Shown in pieces: positions 3,001 through 20,000 of a DNA stretch of 20,000 nucleotides (its first letter is position 1; every line of letters begins with the position of its first letter). The position numbers were made by a program, and so were the translations under genes. Source of the DNA: an uncultured virus (IMG/VR IMGVR_UViG_3300020048_000096) (Duplodnaviria; Heunggongvirae; Uroviricota; Caudoviricetes); IMG/VR virus record IMGVR_UViG_3300020048_000096, positions 55,595 to 75,594 of that record, one strand, 5' to 3'. The notes beneath the pieces were generated by a model. It did no database searches, was not told the DNA's origin, and saw only the letters and a program-made list of their open reading frames with translations.

Positions 3001-6000
3001 ATTCCGATGATTGGATTGTCTGTAGAAAATCGTAAGTATGACGGTTATATCAATGAGGCCAATGAGTTAGAGGCTGTCTATAAAAAGATAAATGAGCAGG
3101 TATATATTCCTGTAATGGCCGGGACAGCAAACACTGACCAGATATTATTATTCAACCAGATTACTGATGTTTTTCACAACATGGAATTGGATGTTGTAAA
3201 AACAGTACAGAATAAAAAGATAGGAGATAACAGCGTTGGAATCTACGGAAAGTCTGAAGAGATATTAACAAAGAAAGATGTTGATAACAGCCTTCAAACA
3301 TTGTTGGACAATTTAAGGTCTACTTATAAAACAAAGAAAGACGTTGTAGAAATTCAACAAGAGGACGACAAAGAGGTAAGTGTAAATCCTTACCTTGACA
3401 ATATTGCAAACATGAATAATCCTTTGAGTCGTATCGCTGATTCTAAGGAAGGCGTAAGTATTTTAGGGACAGACATATACGAACAAGAAGCTGCCTTAAA
3501 CAGATTGGTAGACAACCTACAAGAAAAGTTCAAAAAATTAGGTTTGATAATACCTAAGTCATTATTGCGATTTTCAATTATAGCCATCGACGTTCAGGAA
3601 AACAAACTGGAATTGGTTTCTGATACTGCCGTATACGACTTGTATCAAGCGTCTTCTCAATTTGCAAGAAATAAACAATTCTTAGAGAAGGACTTCTTTG
3701 TAGAACTTAAAGGATTGATATCACGTATATCAAGTGGGCAATCAATGTCGGCATCAGGACAGGTGAGTATTTTTGATATGAACAGCCAGGCCAACAATAA
3801 GATGTTTGCTATTCTGAGAAGTGCCCTTGTGTATGTAGTGAAGTTTGACCCAAGTAATCCAGGTTCTGTTGTAGAAACTCCAGAAGGAAAACCAGTGTAC
3901 CGATACGTAAAATATACCCCTGCCGCTTTAATGTTGCAGGATGTAGAGCGATTAGGTTTAAAAAAGGCATTGGAACTATCTGTGTTACACGATGACTACT
4001 TATCTGATTTTTTCAATGATAATCCAATGTTAAAAGATGCAATGGCAGAAGCCGTTGTAGTTGAAGATGAAGCGAAGATGAAGGAGATTCTGACAATGAT
4101 GACCTACATGGACAACATGAAGTTTCAGATCTATTCCGGAATGGAATACAAAGAAGACGGTGTTACCGACTCTGCAACAAACTTTGGAAAATTAGGACTA
4201 TCTGAAATAGTGGATGCTCAGATTACAATGTTCTTAGACCGTAGAAACAATACAAAAGAAATTAAACTTATTGAAGGAACCGGCGCAAACCAAAAAGTTG
4301 TTAGAAAACAAGGAGGTGTAGTTACATTTCCACGATTCTTAACGCAAAACGAAGCCTCTCAAACGATGATGATGGTATCGGCGAGATACTTCAACTTCTA
4401 TGCTAATTCAGATGACAACAGGCACTCTCCTTCGGATGTAATGATGAGTTCTGTAATACAAGAATACAACAGAATATCAAGAGAGTGGAGCAATTTCGAC
4501 AGAAGGGTTGAAGAGAGAAAGGCGGGTCATAATAGGATGATGTTAAATTACAATGCCACCCGTGAAAAAGACTCAAGAAACTTAGAAACTAACAAAGAAA
4601 ACATCAAAGAACTAAGAGCTTATCAATTCAACACGTTAAGCGACATGTTTAGAACTGGAAAAAAGGCCAATAGTAAAACAAGCAAAGAGGACAGGATAAT
4701 GATACAGTTTAGAGACCGTTTGCTTTTGGCAGCTCGTGGGGAAAAAGACGGTATTGCACAAGGTACTCAATGGAACGAACTCCCTGCTGATTTCAGAAAG
4801 CTTTTGGAAAAAGAACTAAAAGGAAATCTCGCAACATATAATGCGATGGCCTATAACAACTTTAAAAAGCAACTTGTTAAAAGCGGGAAGCTAGAGAACA
4901 GTATAGACCCTCGTACCAAAAATCCTACCATTAAAATTAAAGGGTTACAACATGCAATGACGCAAGACTTTAAATCCTACAATTTGCATGAAAAAGGAAG
5001 TCTCAGTGTATATCCAAATCAAGAAGCCTTTTTGAAAGATTTCTTTTTCAATTACCAAGTAAACTCCATGTTCTTTAACCAGATTATAGACGGAGACATT
5101 GCGCTCTCTATTGAAAACTCTACAGATTATTACAAGAGGGCTAAGAGTTTGGTTGCATCTGGCTCTACCGCAAAAAAAGGTGTTTTTAACCTTGCGATTG
5201 TTGACAATCTTAGGCTTTATATGGACAAAGGAGGCGCTACATCTGATAATGTAGGATTGATAGAAGGTGGTCAGTATGACAGTATCAACGAGCTTGAAAA
5301 AAGAATAGAAAAATCTGAAATTGCAAGGAGTATTTTAGAAAGAGTACCAGGAAGAGAAGCCAGGGTTCTTGAGCTAACAGCGAAGATTGAACTTTTAAAA
5401 CAGACTCTTGAAAATTTACAAACAAGAAGTCCAAAACACACATCCGAAGACGTATTTGACGGACAGGCAATAACCTCTGTGTTGTACAGAATGGATATGA
5501 TGGAAGACAGAGGGCTTCTTTCTGAGAACGTAAAGCAAATATTTCTTGCTTCGTTGTATAGAAGAATTACTTCTGAAGAAGCAGAGATATTAAAATCTTC
5601 TGGAGCATTGTTAAACTCACAAAAAACAGTGTACGCTTCCAGAGAATTTTACATCAAGGAATCCGAAACGCATATCAATAGATTAGACGTTAGCAGACTT
5701 GCTGATGGTGTTTCTCAATCGGCCGCAAACGTGATTCTTAAAAGAGCGTATGATAATATTTATAAACTGCGTGCTGAGAACAGAAATATCGAAGACACTA
5801 AGGGAAGGATTTATCAGAAGAATGAGGAAACCATAGGTCTTATATTTGACAGAGACATCAAACCTTTATGGGTGGCAAAACCACATAAGGAAATACTCCA
5901 CGATATTTTAAATTCGATGGAGTATCATAATACGGATATGTTGACCGACCCTAACGCTACTAAAAAAACGATTTTGTTTCCTTCGTCAATCGCTGAGAAA

Positions 6001-9000
6001 GAAGGAGATTACATTACACTTAATCGAAGTACGATTAAACTACCAATGAACTTTATGTTTACCCAGGTGGAAACGAGTGGCGTAAAAGATATTGTGACAG
6101 CAGGGATACAAAGCATATTTTTATTACCTGCGGATATTATATTGTTAGAAACTTCTATTCTGGCAGACCTTGAGCAAACAAATCCCGAACAAGCTGTAGA
6201 GATGAGAACTGCGATGGATTCTTTGAAGAAAGATGTCGATGCTTACTTCGATACAATGGGTGATGTTACTTCTGAAAGAAAAAACAAAATGCTTAAAATG
6301 CACCGTGACAAAAACGGTGATTTGAAAATAGGTAAGATGATAGATGCAATCCGTAAAGAATTGCAAGGACAAGAATCTGATAGCAACACCTTGAAGTTTT
6401 TTGAAACGGACGTTAATGGAGATCCTAAATTCAACGTGAACTTACCTGTGTTACGCAAAATGTTCCAGTATCACTTTTACTCACACTACTCTAAAGAAGT
6501 ATTTTCTGAGAAAACTGCTGGTTCAAAGTATATCCATGCAAGTAGTTTTGGACATAAAATTATAGAGGACATGCTTACAGGTGAAATCATAAGCTCCAAA
6601 GAGTATGATGCCAATCCGGAGTCATACGAAAACAATTCAAGATATCTTTTTCGTTACCCGGAAATTACAACGGAGATAGACGAGCAAGGAAGGACTGTTT
6701 ATATTGTTGAAGCAATTGTTCCTCGTCCTTATTTTAAAACAGAGCAGGAAGAGGAACTTTGGTTAAACGAACTGAACAAAATGTTTGGTACCAGAATACC
6801 AACAGAGGATAAGCGATCAATGATTGCTTTTAAAATAGTGGATTTCATTGATGGCTCCTATGCGAACACTATTATACTTCCTCAAGCTGTGCATTTACTA
6901 GCTGGTTCGGATTTTGATGTAGATACGCTTTACGCACATGCGTATGCTTATTATAAAGATATTACAGGAAATTATCACAAGTACGGTTCTACCACATACT
7001 ACAATTTGGAAGATACGACACCTGAAATGGTTCGTTTTTCTGAAACGGTACATGAGGCTATGACTGATAAAGGCTATAAGGTTGCTATTGAAAAGGCCAA
7101 AGAAGACTTGAAAAAACGAAAGGTAGATGTTGATGGCAACTTTACCTTTGAGCAGTTTACGCCGGCGGACCAATTTATGAGGTTGATGAACCTTAATGCT
7201 ATGGCTGAAATGAAAGTGTACATCCAGGACGCACAAGAGAATTTCAAAAGACTGGAAGAGTTAAAGGCAGAACAGCAATCAGCTTATGACGCTCACGTTT
7301 TATTCATAGAGCAAAACCCAGAAGACATAGAAAATCCTGTTGTAAAAAATCAGAGAAAGTCTAATAGTAAAGAACTCAGAGAAGCAAAGGAAATGACCGA
7401 TGCGTTAGAACTTCAAATGGAAAAAGTATATGATGGAAAAAGCCTAAAAGATTTCCAAGGTATTTACAATCGTTTTTTTAACACATACATCAGCGTAACG
7501 GCTACCCTGCAAGCAATGGCTGAAAGAGGCGTGCCGGTAACGCTTGCGGAACATGTTCAAAAACCTTCAATAGCAATCAAGCGTGCTCAAAATGCCCACT
7601 TGGATTCTAAGTTAAAAATACTTTCGAGCAAGTTGGTATTTGACCATCTTTACAAGAATGAAAGAACCAGTACTGTATTTTTTAAGAATATTGCTAACAC
7701 CACTTTAGGCAGAGACACCGAATCCAACGCCGCACTGTATAATACATTTTCATTTAGTGGTGTGATAAACGCCAACTTAGGAAACACTGTTGGAAAACAG
7801 GGTATTGAAATTACAGCAGCATATAACAAATTCTTAGGACTGGCATCTTCTTACGGGTTGGTACTAAAGCCAGAAGAAGTTATTTGGTTTTTAGATGATC
7901 CTGATGGTATAAGAAAACACTTCGACAAATTTGGTGGAGATAAATCAATGCGTTCCATTGAATATGTAGGAAATATTTTAGGGATGTTTGCGGATAACGC
8001 CAAGGACCCAATTCCTGTATTACTTGGATTGAATGATGTAAACTTGAATACCACTGCTTCTATGATAGGTATCGGAGTAGATCCTACAATGGCAATCCTT
8101 ATGAATCACCTTTCAAGTATGAAACGCGCTGTAGAAAAAGTACAAGGATCTGTCATTAGCGGAAAAGCGTCTATTACTTACAGCAATGCATTACAGGCAG
8201 AACAGAACGAATTCCTGAAAGCTCCTAAAGGAATGAAAAATGAATTAGCAAAAGAACTTGCTATTTTAAAACTGACTTACGGGGAATCAACGTCATTGGA
8301 TAAAAAATGGAGAGAAAAAGTTTTCATTTCTTTCACAGCACCTAAAGGAACTCGTGAGAATCCTGCACTAAATCCAGAAGAAAAACTAACACCAGAGATG
8401 TTAGGGTTTACCGTAAGAATGGCAGACGGGATGGATCTTTCAGAGAATGCCCAGGAGTATTTGTTATTAGAAATGTACAGATTGCAGACGCTGCAAGGAT
8501 ATGAAATATCAAAGGCCGGAAGTGTCATAGGACTTATGAGCACCGTGAAACCATCACATGAACAAATTGAAAAGTATGACGCTGCATTAACAAGTATGAA
8601 AGACAATACTTCTGTGTTTATTAATAGCGATTTATTGTTTGTAGGAAATTCTTCTTTCAATAGCTTGCGGTTAGTAGTGGATGATTTAATGGAACAGTCT
8701 TCTAAAATATTTACAGCACTGAATCCTTCTTTTAAAGGATTGCACGGAGCGTTTAAAAACTTGGTAAAAGACCAGGAGACCTTATCTGACATTCTTGTTG
8801 CCACTATTATTTTAAACAAAGCAGAAGAAGCGGCCAGAAAACCAACCGCCAATAAAGACCTTCAGTTTTTAAATGACATGTATCTTGAGATGCTACGCCC
8901 TGAATACTGGTTTGGATACAGCAGTGATCCGTCAAAATTTGACACTCTTGAAACATTGTATGACGAACTTTCTGAGAAGTATCCTAACAATGCTTTTGTG

Positions 9001-10101
9001 AATGCTATTTATTTAAAAAGCAAACGAGATGCAATCACATCTACTGAGGCTGCTTACAGAGAAACCAATAGAGAGGGAGAATATTTCAAGACCTATGATG
9101 TATTGGAAATACCAAGCAGAGCAAAAAAAGGACCAGATCAGATGGAAATGTTAAATGACGGTTTTAATTCATTGTTATATCATCCTGATGACAAGAGAAC
9201 AAGATTGATAGCAAAGGTTTTATTTAGACATGAAATGATACGTACTGGACTGGGATTGATACCTAACAGATACATACAACATGTAAATACCGATTTGTTT
9301 TTGCCAATCAATGGATTCTTAGAATCTTTCATGAAAGACGCCGGAGCTTATAATGTATTGGATGCTGTGGGAAAACAGAACAACGACGAAACGTCTGGCG
9401 CAACAATGCTTAACGTTTACAGAAAGCTGATTTCGAATAGTATTCAAACAAATCCGAAGGCTATTCCTTCTGTAAACACAATCACCGTTCAGAATCCAAT
9501 AGCGTTTAATCACGTATTTGACCTTGCGAAGAATGATTACGTAGCGGAAGATACTGAAAATTTGACAAAGATTTTTATGAATCTTGGTGGTAAAACAGTG
9601 AACGCCATGCCGGAACAAGCAACGTTAAACTTTTCAAATCCATTTTTAAACAACGAAGAAGGAAACGAAATAGGAAAATCCCTGAAGGTATTAGCAAAAA
9701 AGCTGGGAATTTCTCAAATTATTAGCGGAGTCGATAATGCTGAAACGTTTTCTTTCCCTCCAATATTAGGGATTAAAGAAGGAAAAAATATTATACACTA
9801 TTACAAAGTTGAAAGCATTGATGGAAAATCCATAGGAGAGCTTTTAACAGACGCTCTTCATTACAGTGATGGCAAAGAATTTAACGGAAGTAAAGTGACC
9901 TATACGCTTATCCAGAATAGCGAGAGATTGAGAAGTATGAGTACAAATGCTTTTAGTTTAACAGAAATTGCAAAGTTCGAAAGAATAGCGAACGGAATAG
10001 AAATACCCGAATCAAAAACATCAGATATAAAACTTAGAAACATCGGAACAGAAGCTTCTCTAAAAGCATTGGGCAACAATGAGGCAGAAAAATCTTGTTA
10101 A
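1..10101 (+). CDS. Giant virion-packaged DNA-dependent RNA polymerase (single-chain two-barrel, crAss/phi14:2 gp66-like) fused to a zincin domain; 5'-truncated
   Basis: The frame is open from base 1 (acg ccg gtt gac ttt aca aat cct gtt cat ttg), so TTG at 31 is probably not the real start. Motifs in the expected order: DYYKR, FDGQ (DGQ 5458-5466), conserved-looking Lys at 5623 and 5656, GTRIPTEDKRSM (R at 6793), GSDFDVD (DFDVD 6910-6924), GKQGIEITA (from 7792) and FADNAKDP (DNAKDP 7993-8010). HEAFH lies at 1849-1863. Confidence 0.92.
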   Translation, partial: TPVDFTNPVHLDRVQKTSKKQFRRGTAIEELTLRDLQKLKESFERFKGLSEQVKERLADSDSGVDVTDLFKNSYGISHAITGNFETKELISYLEEDGEMVQSYKIIDIDTGTIDTRKVPLILQGSSGALLGSEMKDRNMLYSEVAPLVIQKDFLAPNERILIGDKQYDLTSYLNYLDTVSNLRKWTAERKNLTATYLITMKPDGTINHLSLNKKTNSYEGSSMITEINTVLDTIAKLNNGVITKEDAILVFEKLSQKELPFVGVKKKYYANQNFAYNDAKGKYEYAFEIILKNDARGRNLQGKDSHKFFISSAKLEAVRDIITKSEEAKILRGTFSTLNVDLTKADSATVEKFMSDAAILKASNPTNLTLKVFMDSVTVRAQEAFADLFLTGDLKSGVIAEFMNKMKNTNTEAYDGFMEATAGKNTITGVESPGGQAHLLAYEVVKRGSEVRRVHKVINNQNSENNVGNYKVRDTIPSREKIHITLPVLRDEIFNKPLSAEVIKSAQVKETAVAEVLQEVEKPETSSRNIGLIKKKNSNREVFSIEESSENVELGTEKQLNDSIKWVRDKVPQFKISEQDLSQLLNEIGVDGVLLGMFMDKMIYLNKSINSKGVVYHEAFHGVFRHLLNAKQRAVLIGRVKKDKRYSSRFTSAEVNNFAKRRNLVETNERLQELIAEEILAEGFQKFMNDGVKPSQSWFKRFVEMLKNLLKGILKNQDEITQLYSNISKGYYKNAQVVSETNPGEKAFELLNTRLRMVVDEKGEIEPVNGTIDPSDQRQMTYFLTERILNANKYEMVGDERKSIPLRTLFDKARKEIATTIYNVDTMIANNPGKEVIIKDRFEIGHGDISALLMYGFPDTMIKGLDFASTGRTEADLYYEEDELMAESLEVLYEQVKTLLRHVIPSEISKAENDTEDTMINEDITEELGTVEGKKSSDNDQFFNINNIDGMSNEMRRFLSLTAFEYHDEMHDIKYTKMVDGSTIFNTLMKITSDNHFMDIIPMIGLSVENRKYDGYINEANELEAVYKKINEQVYIPVMAGTANTDQILLFNQITDVFHNMELDVVKTVQNKKIGDNSVGIYGKSEEILTKKDVDNSLQTLLDNLRSTYKTKKDVVEIQQEDDKEVSVNPYLDNIANMNNPLSRIADSKEGVSILGTDIYEQEAALNRLVDNLQEKFKKLGLIIPKSLLRFSIIAIDVQENKLELVSDTAVYDLYQASSQFARNKQFLEKDFFVELKGLISRISSGQSMSASGQVSIFDMNSQANNKMFAILRSALVYVVKFDPSNPGSVVETPEGKPVYRYVKYTPAALMLQDVERLGLKKALELSVLHDDYLSDFFNDNPMLKDAMAEAVVVEDEAKMKEILTMMTYMDNMKFQIYSGMEYKEDGVTDSATNFGKLGLSEIVDAQITMFLDRRNNTKEIKLIEGTGANQKVVRKQGGVVTFPRFLTQNEASQTMMMVSARYFNFYANSDDNRHSPSDVMMSSVIQEYNRISREWSNFDRRVEERKAGHNRMMLNYNATREKDSRNLETNKENIKELRAYQFNTLSDMFRTGKKANSKTSKEDRIMIQFRDRLLLAARGEKDGIAQGTQWNELPADFRKLLEKELKGNLATYNAMAYNNFKKQLVKSGKLENSIDPRTKNPTIKIKGLQHAMTQDFKSYNLHEKGSLSVYPNQEAFLKDFFFNYQVNSMFFNQIIDGDIALSIENSTDYYKRAKSLVASGSTAKKGVFNLAIVDNLRLYMDKGGATSDNVGLIEGGQYDSINELEKRIEKSEIARSILERVPGREARVLELTAKIELLKQTLENLQTRSPKHTSEDVFDGQAITSVLYRMDMMEDRGLLSENVKQIFLASLYRRITSEEAEILKSSGALLNSQKTVYASREFYIKESETHINRLDVSRLADGVSQSAANVILKRAYDNIYKLRAENRNIEDTKGRIYQKNEETIGLIFDRDIKPLWVAKPHKEILHDILNSMEYHNTDMLTDPNATKKTILFPSSIAEKEGDYITLNRSTIKLPMNFMFTQVETSGVKDIVTAGIQSIFLLPADIILLETSILADLEQTNPEQAVEMRTAMDSLKKDVDAYFDTMGDVTSERKNKMLKMHRDKNGDLKIGKMIDAIRKELQGQESDSNTLKFFETDVNGDPKFNVNLPVLRKMFQYHFYSHYSKEVFSEKTAGSKYIHASSFGHKIIEDMLTGEIISSKEYDANPESYENNSRYLFRYPEITTEIDEQGRTVYIVEAIVPRPYFKTEQEEELWLNELNKMFGTRIPTEDKRSMIAFKIVDFIDGSYANTIILPQAVHLLAGSDFDVDTLYAHAYAYYKDITGNYHKYGSTTYYNLEDTTPEMVRFSETVHEAMTDKGYKVAIEKAKEDLKKRKVDVDGNFTFEQFTPADQFMRLMNLNAMAEMKVYIQDAQENFKRLEELKAEQQSAYDAHVLFIEQNPEDIENPVVKNQRKSNSKELREAKEMTDALELQMEKVYDGKSLKDFQGIYNRFFNTYISVTATLQAMAERGVPVTLAEHVQKPSIAIKRAQNAHLDSKLKILSSKLVFDHLYKNERTSTVFFKNIANTTLGRDTESNAALYNTFSFSGVINANLGNTVGKQGIEITAAYNKFLGLASSYGLVLKPEEVIWFLDDPDGIRKHFDKFGGDKSMRSIEYVGNILGMFADNAKDPIPVLLGLNDVNLNTTASMIGIGVDPTMAILMNHLSSMKRAVEKVQGSVISGKASITYSNALQAEQNEFLKAPKGMKNELAKELAILKLTYGESTSLDKKWREKVFISFTAPKGTRENPALNPEEKLTPEMLGFTVRMADGMDLSENAQEYLLLEMYRLQTLQGYEISKAGSVIGLMSTVKPSHEQIEKYDAALTSMKDNTSVFINSDLLFVGNSSFNSLRLVVDDLMEQSSKIFTALNPSFKGLHGAFKNLVKDQETLSDILVATIILNKAEEAARKPTANKDLQFLNDMYLEMLRPEYWFGYSSDPSKFDTLETLYDELSEKYPNNAFVNAIYLKSKRDAITSTEAAYRETNREGEYFKTYDVLEIPSRAKKGPDQMEMLNDGFNSLLYHPDDKRTRLIAKVLFRHEMIRTGLGLIPNRYIQHVNTDLFLPINGFLESFMKDAGAYNVLDAVGKQNNDETSGATMLNVYRKLISNSIQTNPKAIPSVNTITVQNPIAFNHVFDLAKNDYVAEDTENLTKIFMNLGGKTVNAMPEQATLNFSNPFLNNEEGNEIGKSLKVLAKKLGISQIISGVDNAETFSFPPILGIKEGKNIIHYYKVESIDGKSIGELLTDALHYSDGKEFNGSKVTYTLIQNSERLRSMSTNAFSLTEIAKFERIANGIEIPESKTSDIKLRNIGTEASLKALGNNEAEKSC
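1849..2136 (+). other. Zincin-like metallopeptidase core within ORF1, catalytic motif intact
   Basis: HEAFH (1849-1863), downstream EEILAE (2029-2046) supplying the third ligand, then an amphipathic helix SWFKRFVEMLKNLLKG. It is preceded by a G-x-F...IYL strand. Confidence 0.85.
6793..6924 (+). other. RNAP catalytic double-psi beta-barrel: RIP motif and Mg-binding DxDxD loop (DFDVD)
   Basis: RIPTEDKRSM...IILP...LAGSDFDVDTLY. A hydrophobic residue replaces the Gly of cellular DFDGD, as in the DFDID motif of phi14:2 gp66 and crAss-like RNAPs. Confidence 0.92.
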
Positions 10102-10124
10102 GGTAAATAAAACAAAACCAAACT

Positions 10125-13100
10125 ATGAGTTGTACAATAGCATATAAAGGAAAAGAGTATTCCGAGAAAGAGTTTCAGGATACTATGGAAAACAAAGCTT
10201 TAGCTGAAGCAGTAAACTCTATAAGCGACTATCCTTCTTCTCAGAGGGATAGCGTTATAGCAGAACGTTTTTATTTAAAGCAACTTCCTAACGGAAAGTT
10301 TGTAGCAAACCAAAAACAACTTGATGCTCTTCGGGAATGGATGAACAAACCTGGAGTTATGGGGGTTAAAATGATTACCAACAGGCTAAAAACAGAAACA
10401 CAATCTTTGCATTTGGTATCTTTCTTTACCCCTGAAAACACCAAGGAATCAGAACGTACTGTGGCCATAACTAAAAAAGTTAACTACGAAGAACAACAAG
10501 GCGACAGAGAACTTATTTCTCAGACCCTTGATAAGTTGACAGCTAAGATTCCGGGGCTGTCGTATGTATTTATAAATTCAGAACAACTGGTTCAAGAGGA
10601 GCATATCGCAGACGTGAATCTTATCAATGCCTTTGTAAAAGACGGTGTTATTTATATGGTTGAGGGTAGGGTAAATGTAGATACAGCAATGCAAGAAGCA
10701 TTGCATCCTTTTATAGAATCTTTATACAACGACAATAGAGGTTTGTTCAACGAATTATTGCGTACTGCCAAGAAGGAACACTTTGAAGTATATGAGCATA
10801 TTGCAAATCTATATGATGCCCAAACAGGATATTCTTCAACAGATATCAATAAAGAATTTGTAACTCGTATTTTTCAAGAGGCTATGCGTCTTGAGACTAC
10901 AGATGCTCCAAAGCAAACCAAATGGCAATTTTTGATTTCGCGTTTTTTCAAATGGCTTAGTGATTTTATGGGAATTACGAAAGGTGATGAACTTTCTTCA
11001 TTGGCTCCTTCAACAAGCATGAAGGAACTTGCCATAAAATTAAACCTGGATGTTATTAAGACGCACCTGCAGTTCACTAAAGGAGAAGTGTTCTATGATT
11101 TGAAATCGGACGAACAACAAGCGAGAGTGAACTTATTAATGGCCCAACCTGATGAACGTTTCTCACAAGAAGCATTAAGTGTGAAATTGGCCCATCAAAA
11201 GGCCCAGTTGAATATGATTTCAAAAAACATAGACGAGAACCTGAATCCCGTGTATGGTAACGCCATTACTAAGCAACGAGAAAAGTTGGTGTTATTTCAA
11301 AAGGCCACACAGAAATACATCGACCTTTTAGAAGACGCTATTAAAACCGGCGAAGAAAAAAGAACAGGAAGTGTTTCGGACTTTACAGGAATGGTAGAAT
11401 TTGTAGATGTAGACCAATATGAATCATTTAGCGGTCTTGGTATAATGCTTGGGCAGTTAATTTCAGACCTTCAGAAGGAAACTCTTGGGACAGAAGTGCA
11501 ATTAAGCAAGGCGTTTACAAGAAGTAAATTTAACGAAATTTATGATAAAATAAAAACAACGCATCCTACAGGTGTGACCTTGTTGTCAGAAGATGAAATA
11601 TACGACATGGCTGGAAGAATCATAAATGCCGTAGGAAATCACGCTGATACAGGAAGTATTATTCTTCCTCAAATGGTATTCGCAGGAGTAAGAGCTGACG
11701 GCAGACATATTATAGCCCATAACGACCTAACCGTTATTGACACCAAAGGAGAAGTTCATATTGTGCATTTCAAATCTCAAAAGATAAACAACATGACAAG
11801 TGTTGAGAATCCGAAGGCAGATGCTACCAAAGCGAAGATAGAACTAACGGCACGTTCCAAGCAGGCCACCAACAATTCTACTTTTACTCAGCCTGAATTC
11901 AACAATGAGTACAGAAGTACTTTTGATAACTGGGCCACTCAGTTGCTTGCAACAGAATATATTTTAAGACAGAACGATATCACTATTAGCCGTAAGGATA
12001 TTGTAAGTTTATTGTATGAATCAAAAGACAAGTTGACGGTAAATGCGTGGACTACTCATATTTTTCACGGGAATTTATACGACTACATGGCTGCCATAGT
12101 AGATAAAAACAGTGAAAAATTGTACACTGACTTTGGAAAAGAGTACTATAAAAAGATTGAAGATATCGTTGACCGGAATATTACATTGACCGAAGATCAG
12201 TCTAAAAAAAGAAAAGCTAACATTGAGAGATTTGCATTCAACATCTCAGAAGAAGGTTATGAAGCTTTGGAACTTCAGATGAAAGAACTGATAGCTCTTA
12301 ATAGAAATGAGTTATGGCAAGAAGTAAATAGGTTGGAAGCCACTAAGACGTACAGGAACAAACCAAAAGACCAGCTCACCAAAGAGGAAAAGCAGACTGA
12401 GGAAAATATTGCAATGCACCGAAAAAGGATAGAGACTCTGAACTCTTTTGAGCAGGTAATTGTTCAGGGAGAGGACTGGTTGAAATCTGTAAAAGTAAAA
12501 TTTGTAATAGACAGTTTGGATACAGATATTAAATCTTTACAAGAGTCTTGGAATACTCTCGCAATATCTGAAAATTCTTCTCAGAGGCACGAAGCAGCAA
12601 GGTCTTATGAAGCAATGGCTACTAAAATGCACACGCTTATCAATCTTCTTAAATCAGAACTTGAACAACAAAAAGAACATAAATTGATTACACAGGATGC
12701 TCCTGTTTTTCAAACCGTTTTAGACCTTGAGTTAAAATTGAATGCTATAAAGGATAAATTCAGAACATATTCACTGTATTCTACAGCAACTCTTCTGTAT
12801 AAAAACTTCGCGGCTGAAAACTCAGACCCTAATGTTGTGCCTGAAGCAATAGCAAACGTGATGAAAGAAATGAAATTAGCCGTAGAACCTCGTATTGCTA
12901 AACTTGAACAATTGATTGAAGACATTGAAGGAGGAAAAACATTAAGCAGAAAGAACAAGGCGTATGTAAGCGTTGTTAAATTTTTTAATCCTACACAAAT
13001 AGAAGCTCACGAAAAAAAGATGGACCCTTTATTGCCCGAAGCGAGAGCTATGGTGGTAAACCTTCAAGAAAAAATTAATGGGCTTAAATCGCTTTATGAA

Positions 13101-16100
13101 TTTGGAGAGGTATTCAATGTGGAAAGCATAGTGAAGTTCCTGAATGGAGTGACCGATGTGAGTAATCTGAATTATATGGGTTCTTCCGATCCTGTTTTAG
13201 GTGCTTTATTCACAGGAAATGTTGACCAGTTTTTTGCATCGGCGTCTAACAGTGATTTTATGCTTTCCGGTTTTACAATGTATATGAAAAACGCATTGGC
13301 AGATGCTCAGGGGGCTATGCAAGATTCATTTGCTGAAAACGACCTTCAGAATAAAATAGATAAAGCTCATAAAAACCTTTCTCAAAAACAATTGAACGAC
13401 GCCATTACGGAAATTGTAAATATTCGAGTAATGGAAAATAACGTTCAAGTGATAGATGAAAATGGAGATCCTGTATACAGACAAGAACTTCATTTGGTGA
13501 GTCCTGTTTCTCAGAGGTATACTCAGTATTTTGAAGAACAAAAAAATGCTATTATATCACGAGAAAAGGAAATTAGAGCCGTAAAAGAAAGCATACATCT
13601 GGAAAAGGATTATGCAAAACAGAAAGAAATTATTGAGACTCTAAAGCAGTTACAAATTGAGAATCAACTCAAGAAAGATGAGTATTTAGATTGGCAACTT
13701 ATGAACTCTTCAATGTTGTACGTAGAGGACTTCTACAAGATAGGAAAATTATTACCTCCTGAATTGCGTGGAGAATTAGAGAATATTCAGCTGCAAATAG
13801 AATTGCTGATGAATGAAAAAGGAAAAGGGAATGAAGAAGATGTAGATGAAGAAACCTACGATCAAATCAGACAGTTGATTATTGATATGAAGATGTTAAA
13901 AAGAGAATCTTCGGAAACGTCATCGGATGAATATGCCGAATATGTTGCTGCTGTAAATAAATTCTACGAATACTCGGACGACACATCCGCTTATAATATT
14001 GTATTAGACCGAAAGCAAAAAGAATACGCCAATCAACCTGAAAAATTACAGCGATTCATAGATAGAAATACTGTAAAAGTTGCAACGAAAGCTTTTTATG
14101 CAAAGAGAAAAGAGCTCTATGATAGAGTTACGGAGTTGACTAAAAGAGAGCAAGACTCTAATTTGAAAGAGATGAGGGACCGTAAAAACAAGATAATGTT
14201 TCCTTATAATCATGAGGGCGTCTTTGATCCTGAACACATGACAGAAAAGGACCGAAATGAGTTAGAAGAAGTTGTTCAGGCCATTGAAGAATACAATGAG
14301 GAAAATAGAAAAGGTGCTTCTACAGCTTTTATTGGACTGACTGCCGCTGAACAGAAAGAATTAAAGGGCTTGTTTAAAGAAATAAAAGAACTTACCAGAA
14401 ATGCGTTGAACAACGCTTATGTAGAAACTCGTTTCAGTTTTGAAAACACCTTGTTCTCTACAAAAAAACACATGGACATTGCGGCCACAAAAGTAATAGA
14501 AGCAGAAGCAGCCGGAGTTGTTGCGGAAATAGACGCCGCAAATGACGAGTTGATGCAGGCGACGTATGATTTTGGATTGGCGGAAGAGACTTTTAAAAAA
14601 TGGTATAACGAACACCACTACGCAGATTATATCTCTATAAATAGTGTTGCTAAAGTAGATTATACATCTGCTAAGTTATTCTTATATGAAAAAGTTCCAG
14701 TGTCAGAAGAACATTACGCTCCAAAGCCTATAAATAAATGGTTCAAACGTAACATTTCAGAGGCGGCCTACAATCCTAATTATAAAGAAATGGCAGATGG
14801 AACTCCTATGCCAAAAGGAATTATAGAGGGCCCTAACGGAGAATTAATTGTAACAGCTGAAGCAAGTAAAGAAAACTTAAACGAAAAGTATATTGCACTT
14901 TCTCAGAACACGGACGCGTATGATTTATACAATACCCTAACAAAGATGTATTTTGAAATGCAAAAGCGCATCTCGTTAAAAAGAGCCGGGTATAGAGTTC
15001 CTGGCGCTAAAGGAACCGGCATCGAGAATTTCACAGAAAGGAATTTATCAGACGCTCTGAGAGGTGAGTTTGGTAAAATGCGTGACGTCTTATTTACATT
15101 ACCTATTTCTCAAGAAGATATTATCTCTAACGAATACGGAGATACTGAAAAAAGAATACGTCACCGTCACAATGAGCAATATACTTTAGACATTCAGTCT
15201 TCAGATGCAGTAAGCTCTCTGTTAAAATGGATGCATGATTCTCACGTAAATGAGGCTATGACAGCTATTAATGCAGAGACAGAAATTTCAATTTCGTTTG
15301 TGGATAGTACAATTACAATGTTGGGTAGAGATCCTATAAAATATGAAAAACGCATCAAAGATTTGAAGCACTTAAAATCGCAAATGGTATTTGAGAAAGG
15401 AAAATTAGTGCACGGAATTACAGAGCAACAAGGTGCTCGTAAAGTTAAAAAGGCATTGGCTCATGTAATGACAATTGCCTCTTTTGGTAGACTTGGTTTT
15501 GATTTAATTGGGCAATTGAAAAACTACGCATCAGGTAATATACAAGCATTTTTAGCAGCAGACCCAAGCTCTCACTACTCTGTCAAAGATTACATTTGGG
15601 CAAAAGGTCAGATATATGGAATGAATGGATTCATAGGAAAGTATATTGCTGACTGGGGAAAGGCTGGAAATCTAAGCAAAGAGACACTTACTTACAGGAG
15701 GTTCAATCCCGTTCAAAAAGACCAAGCTACTTATTTAAGTAATGCTGGAGGAAAGCGTTCTCGCAGACTTCTTGAGAAATTATCATCCTTTCAAGAACTT
15801 GCATATATTTTTCAAGATAAAGGGGATACCGAAATTGGTATGACTGTTTGGTTGGCTACAATGCATGCTAAACGTTTTAGGCTTTTAGAAAAAGACGCTC
15901 AAGGAAACTGGGTACCTAAAGTGAAGGCTGACGGAACGCATGAGACAGTAACGGCATTGGATGTTTATTTTGTAGACGCTCAAGGCAAACTTGCCATCAG
16001 GGAAGATGTAGAGTTTACAAAACAAAATGAGCGTCGTATTAGGAACATCGTCTATTCAGAAATAAGAAGAGCACAAGGTAACTATGCTAAAAGTGATATG

Positions 16101-16871
16101 ACCGCTTCTGAGGCAACAGTTCTTGGAAAGTTCATCTTTTACTTTAAGAAATATTTAATTCCACAAGTGCTAAACCGCGTTGGGACATTGCGTCCGAACT
16201 GGGAAGGAGAACAAGCAGCGCTGGGCTATTGGAATGCGATGTACTCTATGTTAAATCTTTATAGTGGTAGAGATTTCTTTTCTTACTTGTTGTTCTCAGG
16301 ATTTTCAAAAAAAGCAGCGGCGAAAGCGGCAGGTACCGGTTCAAAAGTAAATAGTTATTATGCGGCAAAAGCTGCGCATGCGTCCCGCGAATTAATTCTA
16401 GGAGCTATTCTGACAAGCTTGAGTTTATTAATGCTAGGACTCGTGAAGCGTCGTAATGATGATGATGAAGAACTAGCACTGTTGGAAGGCGCTATGATTA
16501 GACTTATCTGGGGTATGAAGCAGGAAACTACTTCTTTGACGTTGATTCCAGGAATTGGAAGTGGTGATGAGTATATCAGAAACTTCTTTACCATATCGAG
16601 TTTGGTGACAGATGCTACAAAAATTTACAAAGCTACTCAGCATTTGATGGCAATGGCTATTATTTTGGCATACGACGAAGCGCCTGAAGAGAATGCTACA
16701 GGAATGATGGATATCATTTACAATGCAAACGTATATCAAAGAGATGTGGGGCCTTTCGAGGCGGGAACCCCAAAGATATATAAAGACGTGTATGATTATT
16801 CTGGATTGAAAAATATACACGATTTGTTACGACCGGATTACCGAATTTCTCAAATGGCTAAACGTCAATAA
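10125..16871 (+). CDS. Giant virion cargo/ejection protein (2,248 aa): degenerate zincin, degenerate PD-(D/E)xK fold, helical/coiled-coil body, C-terminal hydrophobic segment
   Basis: ATG start with an A-rich leader 23 nt after the RNAP stop. QEALHP at 10692; NDLTVIDTKGEVHIVHFKS at about 11721-11777; QGNY...LGKFIFYFKKY at about 16074-16155; LILGAILTSLSLLMLGLV followed by KRRNDDDEE at 16392-16472. Size and position next to a virion RNAP match co-ejected proteins of crAss-like phages. Confidence 0.78.
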   Translation: MSCTIAYKGKEYSEKEFQDTMENKALAEAVNSISDYPSSQRDSVIAERFYLKQLPNGKFVANQKQLDALREWMNKPGVMGVKMITNRLKTETQSLHLVSFFTPENTKESERTVAITKKVNYEEQQGDRELISQTLDKLTAKIPGLSYVFINSEQLVQEEHIADVNLINAFVKDGVIYMVEGRVNVDTAMQEALHPFIESLYNDNRGLFNELLRTAKKEHFEVYEHIANLYDAQTGYSSTDINKEFVTRIFQEAMRLETTDAPKQTKWQFLISRFFKWLSDFMGITKGDELSSLAPSTSMKELAIKLNLDVIKTHLQFTKGEVFYDLKSDEQQARVNLLMAQPDERFSQEALSVKLAHQKAQLNMISKNIDENLNPVYGNAITKQREKLVLFQKATQKYIDLLEDAIKTGEEKRTGSVSDFTGMVEFVDVDQYESFSGLGIMLGQLISDLQKETLGTEVQLSKAFTRSKFNEIYDKIKTTHPTGVTLLSEDEIYDMAGRIINAVGNHADTGSIILPQMVFAGVRADGRHIIAHNDLTVIDTKGEVHIVHFKSQKINNMTSVENPKADATKAKIELTARSKQATNNSTFTQPEFNNEYRSTFDNWATQLLATEYILRQNDITISRKDIVSLLYESKDKLTVNAWTTHIFHGNLYDYMAAIVDKNSEKLYTDFGKEYYKKIEDIVDRNITLTEDQSKKRKANIERFAFNISEEGYEALELQMKELIALNRNELWQEVNRLEATKTYRNKPKDQLTKEEKQTEENIAMHRKRIETLNSFEQVIVQGEDWLKSVKVKFVIDSLDTDIKSLQESWNTLAISENSSQRHEAARSYEAMATKMHTLINLLKSELEQQKEHKLITQDAPVFQTVLDLELKLNAIKDKFRTYSLYSTATLLYKNFAAENSDPNVVPEAIANVMKEMKLAVEPRIAKLEQLIEDIEGGKTLSRKNKAYVSVVKFFNPTQIEAHEKKMDPLLPEARAMVVNLQEKINGLKSLYEFGEVFNVESIVKFLNGVTDVSNLNYMGSSDPVLGALFTGNVDQFFASASNSDFMLSGFTMYMKNALADAQGAMQDSFAENDLQNKIDKAHKNLSQKQLNDAITEIVNIRVMENNVQVIDENGDPVYRQELHLVSPVSQRYTQYFEEQKNAIISREKEIRAVKESIHLEKDYAKQKEIIETLKQLQIENQLKKDEYLDWQLMNSSMLYVEDFYKIGKLLPPELRGELENIQLQIELLMNEKGKGNEEDVDEETYDQIRQLIIDMKMLKRESSETSSDEYAEYVAAVNKFYEYSDDTSAYNIVLDRKQKEYANQPEKLQRFIDRNTVKVATKAFYAKRKELYDRVTELTKREQDSNLKEMRDRKNKIMFPYNHEGVFDPEHMTEKDRNELEEVVQAIEEYNEENRKGASTAFIGLTAAEQKELKGLFKEIKELTRNALNNAYVETRFSFENTLFSTKKHMDIAATKVIEAEAAGVVAEIDAANDELMQATYDFGLAEETFKKWYNEHHYADYISINSVAKVDYTSAKLFLYEKVPVSEEHYAPKPINKWFKRNISEAAYNPNYKEMADGTPMPKGIIEGPNGELIVTAEASKENLNEKYIALSQNTDAYDLYNTLTKMYFEMQKRISLKRAGYRVPGAKGTGIENFTERNLSDALRGEFGKMRDVLFTLPISQEDIISNEYGDTEKRIRHRHNEQYTLDIQSSDAVSSLLKWMHDSHVNEAMTAINAETEISISFVDSTITMLGRDPIKYEKRIKDLKHLKSQMVFEKGKLVHGITEQQGARKVKKALAHVMTIASFGRLGFDLIGQLKNYASGNIQAFLAADPSSHYSVKDYIWAKGQIYGMNGFIGKYIADWGKAGNLSKETLTYRRFNPVQKDQATYLSNAGGKRSRRLLEKLSSFQELAYIFQDKGDTEIGMTVWLATMHAKRFRLLEKDAQGNWVPKVKADGTHETVTALDVYFVDAQGKLAIREDVEFTKQNERRIRNIVYSEIRRAQGNYAKSDMTASEATVLGKFIFYFKKYLIPQVLNRVGTLRPNWEGEQAALGYWNAMYSMLNLYSGRDFFSYLLFSGFSKKAAAKAAGTGSKVNSYYAAKAAHASRELILGAILTSLSLLMLGLVKRRNDDDEELALLEGAMIRLIWGMKQETTSLTLIPGIGSGDEYIRNFFTISSLVTDATKIYKATQHLMAMAIILAYDEAPEENATGMMDIIYNANVYQRDVGPFEAGTPKIYKDVYDYSGLKNIHDLLRPDYRISQMAKRQ

Positions 16872-19049: not shown

Positions 19050-20000
19050 ATGGCAAAGACGCGCATAGGAAGTACGCAAATCTTAGATGGCGGCATAAAA
19101 AGAGAAGACTTAAATACAACGCAAGCTGGACAAGCGGTTGTTGCAAAGATTCTTCAAGGATCCGGAGGCGTGTCTTTGTCATCTTCTGGAGCAGATTCTG
19201 GTACGGGAGATGTTACTATCAATATAGTTCCTGCAACATTAAGTTCTTTTGGTAGTGTTAAGATTACAGATAGCACGAGTACTAGTGCTTCTGACATCGC
19301 TGCTTCCGCAAGTAGTGTGAAAGCCGCATGGGACTTAGCAAATCACGCACATCCTTATGCAGCGAGTGTTCACACTCACACATTTGCATCACTTACTTCT
19401 AAGCCTACTACTATTGCGGGATATGGAATTACTGATACACCTTGGACAGCTTATCTTCCACTTGCTGGCGGGACATTGACTGGTGATTTAAACATCAAAG
19501 ATGGTGCAGCAGGAGGTGTCCATTTTCATAATGGAACAGGAGCAATAATGACTTCTGTTACTGCGAATGACATTGTATTTATGGGCTCAAGAGAAATGCG
19601 CTTCTCTGATAGCACTAATTGGGATTATAATTCTTGGGCAGGAATGTCTTACCTTAATGCAACGAAGGTGCTTTATGTTGGAGGGCCCGCAGGTTCAAAA
19701 TTCACCTCTAATGCATCTCCTTCCGCTATAACTATTGACATGACACTTATTAATTCTGGTGTGACTTCTGTCTCAGCAGATACTTTTATAGCAGGTGGAG
19801 GAAGTTCGGCGAATTGGAATACTGCATATAATCACAGTCAAAGCAGTCATCCTTATTTACCTTTAGCTGGAGGAACTCTTAGCGGTCAGTTAACAGCCAA
19901 TGGAAGAATAGCTGTAAATGGAGGTTCTGGCTCCTCATATAGCACATCCGATTTAGAAGTAATCTCAGGAAGAACTGGAGGACCAGTAATAGCATTACAT
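19050..20000 (+). CDS. Tail fibre protein, 3'-truncated (317 codons in window; absent from the supplied ORF track)
   Basis: ATG at 19050 after TAAATAAATTATAAA, with no stop to the window end (MAKTRIGSTQILDGGIKREDL...GPVIALH). It has a phage fibre repeat (PATLSSFGSVKITDS...AASASSVKAAWDLAN), HAH/HTH, KPTTIAGYGITD and two YLPLAGGTLxG motifs. Confidence 0.88.
   Translation, partial: MAKTRIGSTQILDGGIKREDLNTTQAGQAVVAKILQGSGGVSLSSSGADSGTGDVTINIVPATLSSFGSVKITDSTSTSASDIAASASSVKAAWDLANHAHPYAASVHTHTFASLTSKPTTIAGYGITDTPWTAYLPLAGGTLTGDLNIKDGAAGGVHFHNGTGAIMTSVTANDIVFMGSREMRFSDSTNWDYNSWAGMSYLNATKVLYVGGPAGSKFTSNASPSAITIDMTLINSGVTSVSADTFIAGGGSSANWNTAYNHSQSSHPYLPLAGGTLSGQLTANGRIAVNGGSGSSYSTSDLEVISGRTGGPVIALH
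19452..19886 (+). repeat. Protein-level repeat YLPLAGGTL(T/S)G, two copies, in the last tail fibre gene
   Basis: Copies at 19452-19484 and 19854-19886 share 10 of 11 residues but use largely different codons, so the repeat is old or maintained at protein level. Confidence 0.8.

What the first reader, a model, noticed from the sequence alone, without database searches (positions are those of the whole stretch)
10096..10133. Only two cysteines in ~5,600 aa, at the C-terminus of the RNAP and the N-terminus of the next giant protein: possible covalent chaining of ejected proteins
Seen: reading both translations, ORF1 has one Cys, its final residue (EAEKSC*, TGT 10096-10098), and ORF2 has one Cys, residue 3 (MSC, TGT 10131-10133). 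Even at 0.5% Cys about 28 would be expected, and both survivors sit at adjacent termini. Known: crAss-like virion RNAPs and neighbouring giant proteins are packaged and delivered through a narrow tail, presumably at least partly unfolded. Inference: internal Cys are purged to avoid mis-pairing, while terminal Cys form a head-to-tail disulfide (or shared metal site). This would link the cargo into an ordered chain that is pulled through the tail and released in the reducing cytoplasm. ORF2 does not end in Cys, so it would be the chain end. I am not aware of this being described, but cannot check the literature.
Basis: partly seen in the sequence, partly recalled or inferred. Interest (0 to 1): 0.9.

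Follow-up and report, generated by a model that had tools for sequence, protein, structure and literature searches.

The report
Terminal cysteine pairs chain crassvirus cargo
The giant proteins that this crAss-like phage packs into its particle, including its RNA polymerase, carry almost no cysteine except one at each end that faces the next protein, a rule kept across the whole phage order, which points to untested end-to-end disulfide links joining them into one chain.

Summary
In the whole 75.6-kb genome, ORF1 is 3,779 aa with Cys only at residue 4 and at the last residue. The upstream 1,431-aa protein has one Cys, 4 residues from its end. ORF2 has one Cys, at residue 3.

In 44 dereplicated relatives, 120 giant ORFs (292,302 aa) hold 152 terminal and 100 internal Cys. 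Cys flanks a gene junction on both sides or on neither (79 both, 129 neither, 21 one side only).

The pairs follow gene boundaries. They appear where a gene is split and are absent where genes are fused.

Cultured crassviruses show the same pattern: phi14:2, ΦcrAss001, p-crAssphage and, with a corrected start codon, crAss002.

An unrelated cyanophage, A4, has the identical signature, and published cryo-EM shows it to be a disulfide.

Best reading (about 0.65): head-to-tail disulfides join the cargo proteins in the virion. Ordered threading and release by reduction in the host are inference. No chemistry has been tested in any crassvirus.

Earlier notes of this scan report the same pattern on other genomes. 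I found no paper describing it for Crassvirales.

The parts
1..10101 (+). 3' 10.1 kb of the 11,340-nt gene for protein B (3,779 aa; genome 54356-65695). B is the virion RNA polymerase giant, equivalent to the C-terminal part of a gp47-like protein fused to a gp50/gp66-like RNAP.
   Evidence: ORF list. Whole-genome ORFs. tblastn and blastp hits to the crAss001 gp50, gp47 and phi14:2 gp66 regions.
1849..1863 (+). HEAFH motif (B residues 1030-1034), zincin-like. H, E and H are invariant in 14 homologues.
   Evidence: The region aligns with crAss001 gp47 residues 2103-2204.
6910..6924 (+). DFDVD motif (B residues 2717-2721), the DFDxD catalytic motif of crAss-like virion RNAPs.
   Evidence: The motif is named in the abstract of bioRxiv 10.1101/2020.03.07.982082 (listing).
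10096..10098 (+). TGT, the Cys that is the last residue of B. This is the upstream half of the B|C junction pair.
   Evidence: It is the only invariant column in the last 100 residues of 30 homologues.
10102..10124 (.). 23-nt intergenic spacer between B and C.
10125..16871 (+). Gene for protein C (2,248 aa), the last member of the chain (gp65/gp49-like). It has one Cys, at residue 3, and none near its C-end.
   Evidence: Weak blastp hits to phi14:2 gp65 and crAss001 gp49.
10131..10133 (+). TGT, Cys3 of C. This is the downstream half of the B|C junction pair.
   Evidence: It is the only invariant column in the first 100 residues of 30 homologues. In the model it sits just before the first beta-strand.

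Best explanation
Three consecutive giant virion proteins of this crassvirus are kept almost free of cysteine. They are A (1,431 aa, just upstream of the window), B (3,779 aa, RNA polymerase) and C (2,248 aa). Each gene boundary is flanked by one Cys 0-8 residues from the C-end of the upstream protein and one Cys at residue 3-7 of the downstream protein.

I read each pair as an inter-protein disulfide formed in the particle. The bonds would join A-B-C head to tail into one quasi-linear chain of about 7,500 residues.

Shown here:
- the signature itself;
- its order-wide conservation;
- its strict both-or-neither pairing at junctions;
- its appearance at new gene breaks and absence at fusions;
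- an identical signature that is a real disulfide in phage A4.

Inferred: that the bond forms in crassvirus particles (about 0.65).

More weakly inferred (about 0.35):
- the link exists so that the cargo leaves as one ordered thread through the narrow portal and tail;
- the Cys sit at the extreme ends so that the joint has almost no side branch;
- other Cys are purged to prevent mis-pairing or trapping;
- the reducing host cytoplasm releases the parts.
For: Own genome. A has its only Cys at -4. B has Cys 4 and the last residue. C has Cys 3. There are no other Cys in 7,458 aa.

Protein database.
- 6 of 6 C homologues (25-38% identity) have Cys at residue 3-5.
- 18 of 18 B homologues have Cys within 0-5 residues of the end. 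13 of 18 have Cys at residue 3-4. The other 5 are truncated or the most distant.
- 3 of 3 A homologues have a single Cys, at -2 or -3.

Related loci. 79 related IMG/VR loci plus ΦcrAss001 and this genome gave 81 loci in 44 clusters.
- Of 229 adjacent same-strand gene pairs, 79 have Cys on both sides, 10 upstream only, 11 downstream only, and 129 on neither (Fisher OR 93, p 1.5e-37).
- For pairs touching an ORF of at least 1,000 aa the counts are 77/2/7/50.
- Of the 9 discordant giant junctions, 4 come from a 162-165-aa gene inserted between B and C. The other 5 are RNAP genes whose partner is not the upstream neighbour.
- The Cys is the only invariant column in the terminal 100 residues at both junctions.

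Natural experiments.
- B is split in at least 9 clusters, giving a second piece of 149-744 aa. Each new end carries a Cys.
- I predicted a hidden ORF in a 590-nt gap and found a 193-195-aa ORF with exactly 2 Cys, at residue 3 or 5 and at -1.
- L033 fuses an A-like N-terminal part to B (4,532 aa, 1 Cys). L066 fuses the RNAP to C (4,520 aa, 1 Cys). Neither has a junction pair.
- p-crAssphage gp44 is a gp50+gp49 fusion with no Cys in the extrapolated joint.
- A aligns with crAss001 gp47 residues 94-846 (hhalign 97.4%, E 1e-11). B residues 977-1101 align with gp47 residues 2103-2204. The boundaries lie at different places in the two phages, and the Cys lie at the boundaries.

Cultured phages: phi14:2 gp67/66/65, crAss001 gp47/50/49, p-crAssphage gp45/44 and crAss002 gp32/33.

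Precedent. In A-4L, gp27 has its sole Cys at 1715 of 1,717 aa and gp26 has its sole Cys at 5. Cryo-EM shows a disulfide between them (PMC12002296, passages). 3 of 3 relatives examined keep the pair.

Disulfides do exist in crAss001 virions, and gp47/49/50 are in the virion by mass spectrometry (PMC10172136, passages).

Co-fold of the last 100 aa of B with the first 100 aa of C: verdict weak support. Score 0.49, best of 3 controls 0.02. The mark was reached by 116 of 157 solved complexes and 2 of 215 mismatched pairs. At 0.60 or under it was reached by only 18 of those 157 and by both mismatches. Runs agree in at least 80% of contacts, and the partner's pLDDT is at least 73.
Against: - No chemical evidence exists for any crassvirus.
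- The cargo proteins were not resolved in the crAss001 maps, and that paper reports no cross-link between them.
- Particles assemble in a reducing cytoplasm, and many hosts are anaerobes, so an oxidant is needed. Pfam found no thiol oxidase or thioredoxin in this genome.
- The co-fold pass is weak and gives no contacts. The model of B's C-terminus has low confidence (pLDDT 56).
- Sequences are related, so the Fisher p-value is inflated.
- ORFs were called by a simple first-ATG rule under table 11. One cluster (L061) had no intact giant ORF and was uninformative.
- In gut-type phages B keeps 2-3 internal Cys and its C-side Cys sits at -8.
- For 3 of the 5 RNAP genes without an upstream partner (L060, L074, L079), no partner was identified in the locus.
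Confidence: 0.65

Rival explanations
1. The disulfides exist but only staple a static complex inside the capsid, as in the A4 pre-ejectosome. The proteins are not threaded out as one chain. The bonds must break, or the complex must come apart, before or during ejection.
For: In A4 the bond locks the C-terminal helix of gp27 into a cleft of gp26, within a pentameric ring above the portal (PMC12002296, passages). The first 100 residues of C fold as a compact domain with Cys3 at its edge.
Against: A staple could sit anywhere on an interface. Here the Cys lie at residue 3-7 or 0-8 from the end in 152 of 152 terminal cases, and never deeper. Total chain length stays at 6,381-8,786 aa whether it is encoded by 2, 3 or 4 genes. 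That pattern fits a requirement for one continuous thread.
Confidence: 0.25
2. The two thiols are joined by something other than a disulfide, for example a shared metal ion. Alternatively, they only make a non-covalent contact.
For: Sequence alone cannot tell S-S from S-metal-S. Assembly takes place in a reducing cytoplasm.
Against: There is one Cys per terminus, and no conserved His, Cys, Asp or Glu partner column in the terminal 100 residues. Offsets vary from 0 to 8 and from 3 to 7, which argues against a fixed coordination geometry. The same signature in A4 was modelled as a disulfide.
Confidence: 0.07
3. Each terminal Cys acts on its own rather than pairing with its neighbour. It might, for example, tether the protein to the portal, the capsid or a host envelope protein.
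For: No partner has been seen directly. For L060, L074 and L079 no upstream partner was found in the locus.
Against: The outer ends of the chain never carry a Cys. All 27 complete chains have a Cys-free first N-end and last C-end. Fusions lose exactly the two Cys that face the fused joint, while the remaining pair stays. Junctions are both-or-neither.
Confidence: 0.06
4. The pattern is chance, relaxed selection at floppy ends, or a nucleotide signal at gene boundaries rather than a selected amino acid.
For: None found.
Against: The positional probability for the 4 Cys of A, B and C is 5e-11. The Cys is invariant at 22-27% mean column identity. Distances to the stop or start codon vary, so no fixed nucleotide word is shared. 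The pattern recurs in an unrelated phage family.
Confidence: 0.01

Closest known systems
Cyanopodophage A4 (Anabaena phage A-4L) ejection proteins gp27 and gp26, with the Cys1715-Cys5 disulfide in the pre-ejectosome (PNAS 2025, PMC12002296; passages read)
   Same: These are adjacent genes. The upstream protein has its sole Cys 2 residues from the end, and the downstream protein has its sole Cys at residue 5. The pair is kept in Pf-WMP3, Pf-WMP4 and TR020. The bond is seen by cryo-EM.
   Different: There is no detectable sequence homology to the crassvirus proteins. A4 has one link between two proteins, not a chain of 3-4. No RNA polymerase is involved. The paper does not generalise the signature and does not link it to gene fusion or fission.
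RNA-polymerase cargo module of cultured crassviruses: phi14:2 gp67-gp66-gp65 and ΦcrAss001 gp47-gp50-gp49
   Same: The proteins are homologous and are found in virions (PMC10172136 passages; preprint 10.1101/2020.03.07.982082 passages). They show the same terminal-Cys rule.
   Different: Gene boundaries fall at other places. Here the gp47-like protein is cut into A plus the first ~1,200 residues of B, and that part is fused to the RNAP. The two papers do not contain the words cysteine or, for these proteins, disulfide.
Cysteine-suppressed ejection proteins of Schitoviridae (N4 gp50, DEV gp71-73; PMC11445570, passages)
   Same: A giant virion RNAP is ejected into the host, and Cys is almost absent. 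The published explanation is passage through a periplasm that catalyses disulfide formation.
   Different: There the RNAP is one chain of about 3,400-3,500 aa and the suppression is total, with no terminal Cys. Here the cargo is several chains that keep exactly the junction-facing Cys.
Disulfide-linked two-chain toxins released by reduction after translocation (abstract of PMC6899712 seen in a search listing)
   Same: It would work in a similar way: chains held by one inter-chain disulfide outside the cell and separated in the reducing cytosol.
   Different: This is an analogy only. It is not a phage, there is no homology, and the bond is not at the chain termini.

Membership tests
Crassvirales virion RNAP/cargo module (gp67-66-65 / gp47-50-49 type) | Giant protein with the DFDxD catalytic motif, homologous to gp66/gp50 | tested here: met
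   DFDVD at B residues 2717-2721 (window 6910-6924). It is invariant in 14 homologues. tblastn and blastp hit crAss001 gp50, phi14:2 gp66 and p-crAssphage gp44.
Crassvirales virion RNAP/cargo module (gp67-66-65 / gp47-50-49 type) | Upstream gp47/gp67-like and downstream gp49/gp65-like partners in the same order | tested here: met
   The A profile against crAss001 gp47 gives hhalign 97.4%, E 1e-11. Against phi14:2 gp67 it gives only 50%. Controls gp65 and gp46 give 0.2% and 0.1%. B 977-1101 aligns with gp47 2103-2204. C against gp65 gives E 1e-4 and against gp49 E 4e-3, both weak.
Crassvirales virion RNAP/cargo module (gp67-66-65 / gp47-50-49 type) | Crassvirus structural genes in the same genome | tested here: met
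   Pfam Crass_capsid (E 6.5e-29), CrAss_Ring_2 (5.6e-18) and crAss_MUZ (6.3e-11). CrAss_Ring_1 scored below its cut-off.
Crassvirales virion RNAP/cargo module (gp67-66-65 / gp47-50-49 type) | Proteins packaged in the virion and ejected | not testable with these tools
   Known only for the cultured relatives (PMC10172136 passages).
A4-type head-to-tail disulfide between adjacent ejection proteins | Sole or nearly sole Cys within a few residues of the upstream C-end and of the downstream N-end, in adjacent genes | tested here: met
   compare A-4L.
A4-type head-to-tail disulfide between adjacent ejection proteins | Sequence homology to gp27/gp26 | tested here: not met
   phmmer of A4 gp26, gp27 and gp28 against all ORFs of the 81 loci and the cultured crassvirus proteins gave 0 hits at E 0.01. 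This is 'works like', not 'member of'.
A4-type head-to-tail disulfide between adjacent ejection proteins | S-S bond observed in the particle | not testable with these tools
   Needs non-reducing gels, mass spectrometry or cryo-EM of a crassvirus.
Cysteine-suppressed ejection proteins (Schitoviridae type) | Near absence of Cys in ejected proteins | tested here: met
   Internal Cys is 0.034% in 292,302 aa of giant ORFs, against 0.58% in the other ORFs of the same loci.
Cysteine-suppressed ejection proteins (Schitoviridae type) | Suppression is complete, termini included | tested here: not met
   79 N-terminal and 73 C-terminal Cys are retained.

The most novel reading that the evidence does not exclude
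Crassviruses, and by convergence at least the A4-like cyanophages, deliver their internal proteins as a single thread stitched by disulfides. Here that thread is about 7,500 residues and includes the RNA polymerase. The peptide bond and the terminal disulfide are interchangeable joints, so evolution can cut or fuse the genes freely. The redox step on entering the host cytoplasm unhooks and activates the polymerase. The signature would then be a general, sequence-readable marker of ejected protein trains in podophages.
Probability: 0.3. Interest if true: 0.9.

Novelty: new variant of a known kind. Interest (0 to 1): 0.8.

Why it matters
Crassviruses are the most abundant phages of the human gut. 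How they move some 700 kDa of folded protein, including the polymerase that starts infection, through a narrow tail is an open question (PMC10172136 and PMC13434306 passages).

The terminal-Cys rule turns that question into simple experiments on phages already in culture. It may even be answerable by re-searching unreduced-virion mass-spectrometry data that already exist.

The rule is also practical for annotation:
- It marks which giant proteins belong to the cargo chain.
- It predicts hidden small chain genes.
- It corrects start codons (crAss002 gp33).
- It explains why these genes can be split, fused or moved to the other strand without loss of function.

Tried and rejected
Searches that led nowhere.
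- PHROGs and Pfam gave no family for ORF1, ORF2 or the upstream protein.
- ORF2 as a single query found no related locus in viral contigs. Only an alignment of ORF1 homologues did.
- tblastn of ORF2 against cultured phages gave only 3 marginal hits.
- phmmer of the cultured crassvirus proteins against A, B and C found nothing at E 1e-3. blastp and hhalign were needed.
- A4 gp26, gp27 and gp28 have no detectable homology to crassvirus proteins.
- Pfam found no thioredoxin or sulfhydryl oxidase in this genome.

Readings considered and rejected.
- A nucleotide signal at gene boundaries. The offsets vary, so there is no shared word.
- Chance.
- An alternative pairing in which B closes on itself and A pairs with C. 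L033 lost exactly the A|B-facing Cys and kept the B|C pair, and L066 did the reverse.
- Membership of the chain for the two other terminal Cys of this genome (the 106-aa ORF and the 491-aa fibre-like ORF). These do not recur in the relatives' listings, so I left them out of the chain.

Papers.
- The Nature version of the phi14:2 paper (PMC12127119) is not held. Only the preprint was searched, and its supplements are closed.
- Seven searches found no paper describing terminal Cys in Crassvirales.
Full report
OBSERVATION. TGT at 10096-10098 is the last codon of ORF1 and is followed by TAA. ORF2 opens ATG AGT TGT at 10125-10133. The window part of ORF1 (3,366 aa) has one Cys, its last residue. 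ORF2 (2,248 aa) has one Cys, at residue 3. At 0.5% Cys, two or fewer in 5,614 aa has Poisson probability 2.7e-10.

WHOLE GENOME. The window is the last 20 kb of a single 75,594-bp contig.
- ORF1 is complete there. I call it B. It is 3,779 aa, begins MSQC and ends EKSC*, and has no other Cys.
- The gene before it, which I call A, is 1,431 aa. Its single Cys sits 4 residues from the end (..SLCTKTK*).
- ORF2, which I call C, begins MSC and has no Cys near its end.

A, B and C hold 4 Cys in 7,458 aa, all at the ends that face a neighbour. The chance of that placement is about 5e-11.

The depletion is local. The rest of the genome has 167 Cys in about 12,900 aa. Pfam identifies the genome as a crassvirus through capsid, ring and muzzle proteins. 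B carries an invariant HEAFH motif and the DFDVD polymerase motif.

RELATIVES, PROTEINS.
- 6 of 6 homologues of C (25-38% identity) have Cys at residue 3-5, and have 1, 1, 5, 1, 3 and 1 Cys in all.
- 18 of 18 homologues of B have a Cys within 0-5 residues of the end.
- 13 of 18 homologues of B have a Cys at residue 3-4. The five without are one ORF that starts mid-gene, one short form, and the three most distant.
- 3 of 3 homologues of A have exactly one Cys, 2-3 residues from the end.

RELATIVES, LOCI. An alignment of B homologues retrieved 79 IMG/VR loci. With ΦcrAss001 and this genome they make 81 loci in 44 clusters at 70% identity of B. I took one representative per cluster and called ORFs with a simple first-ATG rule under table 11.
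- 229 adjacent same-strand gene pairs split into 79 with Cys on both sides of the junction, 10 upstream only, 11 downstream only, and 129 on neither (odds ratio 93).
- For pairs touching an ORF of at least 1,000 aa the counts are 77, 2, 7 and 50.
- The p-value of 1.5e-37 is inflated by relatedness.
- The 9 discordant giant junctions have explanations. Four come from a 162-165-aa gene inserted between B and C in L063 and L067, where the pair still stands on either side of the insert. Five are polymerase genes that open a block. For two of these (L068, L077) the partner with a C-terminal Cys lies on the opposite strand, as in ΦcrAss001. For three (L060, L074, L079) I did not find the partner in the locus.
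- The 120 ORFs of at least 1,000 aa (292,302 aa) hold 79 N-terminal Cys (positions 3-7, never 2), 73 C-terminal Cys (0-8 from the end) and 100 internal Cys (0.034%). 80 of the 120 have no internal Cys. The other 263 ORFs have 0.58% Cys.
- In alignments of the terminal 100 residues, the Cys is the only invariant column on both sides of the B|C junction (30 sequences, mean column identity 22% and 27%).
- It is also the only column at 90% or more on the A side of the A|B junction. On the B side there is the Cys plus one Lys (26 pairs).
- One cluster (L061) had no intact giant ORF and told nothing.

THE PAIRS FOLLOW GENE BOUNDARIES. This is the strongest argument.

(a) Splits. In at least nine clusters B is cut in two, with a second piece of 149, 193-195, 326 or 644-744 aa. 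Each new end carries a Cys. I predicted that the unexplained 590-nt gap in five loci would hold such a piece. It holds a 193-195-aa ORF with exactly two Cys, at residue 3 or 5 and at -1.

(b) Fusions.
- L033 has a 4,532-aa protein in which B homology starts near residue 1,070 and whose start resembles A's. It has one Cys only, the one facing C.
- L066 has a 4,520-aa protein that joins the polymerase part to a C-type end. It has one Cys only, the one facing its upstream neighbour.
- p-crAssphage gp44 is likewise a gp50+gp49 fusion, with no Cys in the extrapolated joint.

(c) Moved boundaries. A aligns with residues 94-846 of ΦcrAss001 gp47 (hhalign 97.4%, E 1e-11; two control proteins scored 0.2% and 0.1%). 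B residues 977-1101 align with gp47 residues 2103-2204. The A|B break therefore lies inside what is one Cys-free polypeptide in ΦcrAss001. Conversely, the gp47|gp50 break lies inside Cys-free B.

(d) Chain ends. All 27 complete same-strand chains have a Cys-free first N-end and last C-end. They comprise 21 chains of three genes, 5 of four and 1 of two, totalling 6,381-8,786 aa.

The fusions also settle who pairs with whom. Losing exactly the two Cys that face the fused joint, while the other pair stays, fits neighbour pairing. It does not fit ring closure of B or A-to-C pairing.

CULTURED PHAGES.
- phi14:2: gp67 (1,797 aa) has its one Cys as the last residue. gp66, the crystallised polymerase, has Cys 3 and 2179 of 2,180. 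gp65 has its one Cys at residue 3.
- ΦcrAss001: gp47 has its one Cys at -2. gp50 has Cys 5, 1334 and -8. gp49 has its one Cys at residue 5.
- p-crAssphage: gp45 ends ..SCM*, and gp44 begins MSC.
- crAss002: gp32 has its one Cys at -1. gp33 as annotated has its first Cys at residue 35, but residue 33 is a Met followed by S-C. The rule suggests the start is called 32 codons too early.

PRECEDENT. A note from this scan's earlier work pointed me to phage A4, and I checked it.
- In A-4L, gp27 (1,717 aa) has its sole Cys at 1715, and the next gene's product gp26 (1,114 aa) has its sole Cys at 5.
- Pf-WMP3, Pf-WMP4 and TR020 (23-27% identity) keep the pair, 3 of 3.
- These proteins show no homology to the crassvirus ones. 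The signature has therefore arisen at least twice, and in the one case examined it is a disulfide.

STRUCTURE PREDICTIONS.
- The first 100 residues of C fold with mean pLDDT 79. Cys3 sits just before the first strand.
- The last 100 residues of B are modelled poorly (pLDDT 56), with short helices at the end.
- Co-folding the two gave the verdict "weak support": score 0.49, best of 3 controls 0.02. The mark was reached by 116 of 157 solved complexes and 2 of 215 mismatched pairs. At 0.60 or under it was reached by only 18 of those 157 and by both mismatches. Runs agree in at least 80% of contacts, and the partner's pLDDT is at least 73. No contacts were given.

MECHANISM. Shown: the signature, its conservation, its pairing logic, and a structural precedent. 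Inferred with about 0.65 confidence: the pairs are disulfides formed in the particle. ΦcrAss001 virions do contain disulfides elsewhere, and gp47, gp49 and gp50 are in the virion (PMC10172136, passages).

Inferred more weakly, at about 0.35, is the purpose:
- The cargo must pass constrictions narrower than 50 Å partly unfolded (same paper). A joint with stubs of only 2-6 and 0-8 residues is nearly unbranched.
- A linked chain fixes order and 1:1:1 stoichiometry.
- Purging other Cys prevents wrong pairs, or trapping in the periplasm. The latter is the published idea for N4-like phages (PMC11445570, passages).
- The reducing cytoplasm would separate the parts.

The main rival is a purely static staple as in A4. 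Metal bridging, independent roles for each Cys, and chance are much less likely.

NOVELTY. Two things are in print: cysteine suppression in ejected proteins, and one terminal disulfide in A4. The crassvirus chain, its order-wide conservation and its tracking of gene breaks were not found in seven literature searches. Nor were they found in the texts of the two key crassvirus papers, where the word cysteine does not occur. The final Nature version of the phi14:2 paper and the preprint's supplements could not be read. Earlier notes of this scan report the same pattern on other genomes. My tabulation up to one search was made before I saw them.

LIMITS.
- No wet evidence exists for any crassvirus.
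- ORF calling was simple, and alternative genetic codes were not tested.
- The sequences are not independent.
- Only 80 of 212 confirmed viral-contig matches were kept by the tool.

Noticed in passing
window 17559-19034 (Cys codon 19017-19019); genome 44212-44532: Two further terminal Cys occur in this genome. The 491-aa fibre-like protein has its only Cys 4 residues from the end (..ILCTYFK*). A 106-aa ORF begins MRC. In relatives, the ~1,040-aa protein with a similar start (MKVRITK/MKIRITK) has no N-terminal Cys, and the downstream ~390-440-aa proteins have one internal Cys. I therefore did not count either as part of the chain. Homology was not tested.
   Followed up: partly
genome 47415-50015 (upstream of the window); Z-labelled ORFs in L003-L057: The ~870-1,050-aa protein just upstream of A has no Cys at all in this genome or in any of the Z-labelled ORFs of the relatives (39 blastp-labelled ORFs, this genome's included). 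By position it may be a Cys-free cargo protein outside the chain. Its MATF/MANF start resembles that of ΦcrAss001 gp46, but only by eye, and hhalign of the A profile against gp46 found nothing.
   Followed up: partly
L093 (crAss002, MN917146) gp33, locus 9624-22361: The annotated start puts the first Cys at residue 35, yet residues 33-35 read M-S-C, like the N-termini of all other chain members. The terminal-Cys rule suggests the true start is 32 codons downstream.
   Followed up: partly
L063 16711-17208; L067 8776-9264: A 162-165-aa gene with only internal Cys sits between B and C in two distant lineages. The B C-end Cys and the C N-end Cys are both kept across the insert. What the insert is was not examined.
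   Followed up: no
L079, L027: Two lineages have relaxed internal Cys exclusion (21 and 12 internal Cys in the chain) but keep every terminal pair. The pairs thus seem to be under stronger constraint than the exclusion.
   Followed up: no
database hits P0004-6, P0014, P0018, P0021, P0025: Homologues carry varied precomputed Pfam domains. C homologues have PDDEXK_1 nuclease. B homologues have RNase H (PF00075), PF13532, PF25176, and Zeta_toxin/AAA_33 kinase-like domains. The giant cargo proteins look like carriers of variable enzymatic passengers.
   Followed up: no
L088-L091 (A-4L, Pf-WMP3, Pf-WMP4, TR020): The sole-Cys pair (-1 or -2 upstream, residue 5 downstream) is conserved across the four Saffermanviridae genera examined at 23-27% identity. 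The A4 paper passages I read describe only the one phage.
   Followed up: yes
genome 38764-46133: Five runs of 10 N (masked stretches) lie in the structural block upstream of the window and put X into five ORFs. The window itself has none. The contig ends inside ORF5 (window 19050-20000), so the genome may be incomplete.
   Followed up: no
window 6898-7236 (-), 8277-8852 (-), 16473-16820 (-): Three antisense ORFs of 112-191 aa lie wholly inside the B and C genes. They are probably not genes and were not examined.
   Followed up: no
L092 (p-crAssphage) 24459-25726: The GenBank annotation lists a putative thioredoxin (gp39) and a truncated one (gp37), 2-3 kb from the cargo genes on the other strand. 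No such gene was found by Pfam in the window's genome.
   Followed up: no
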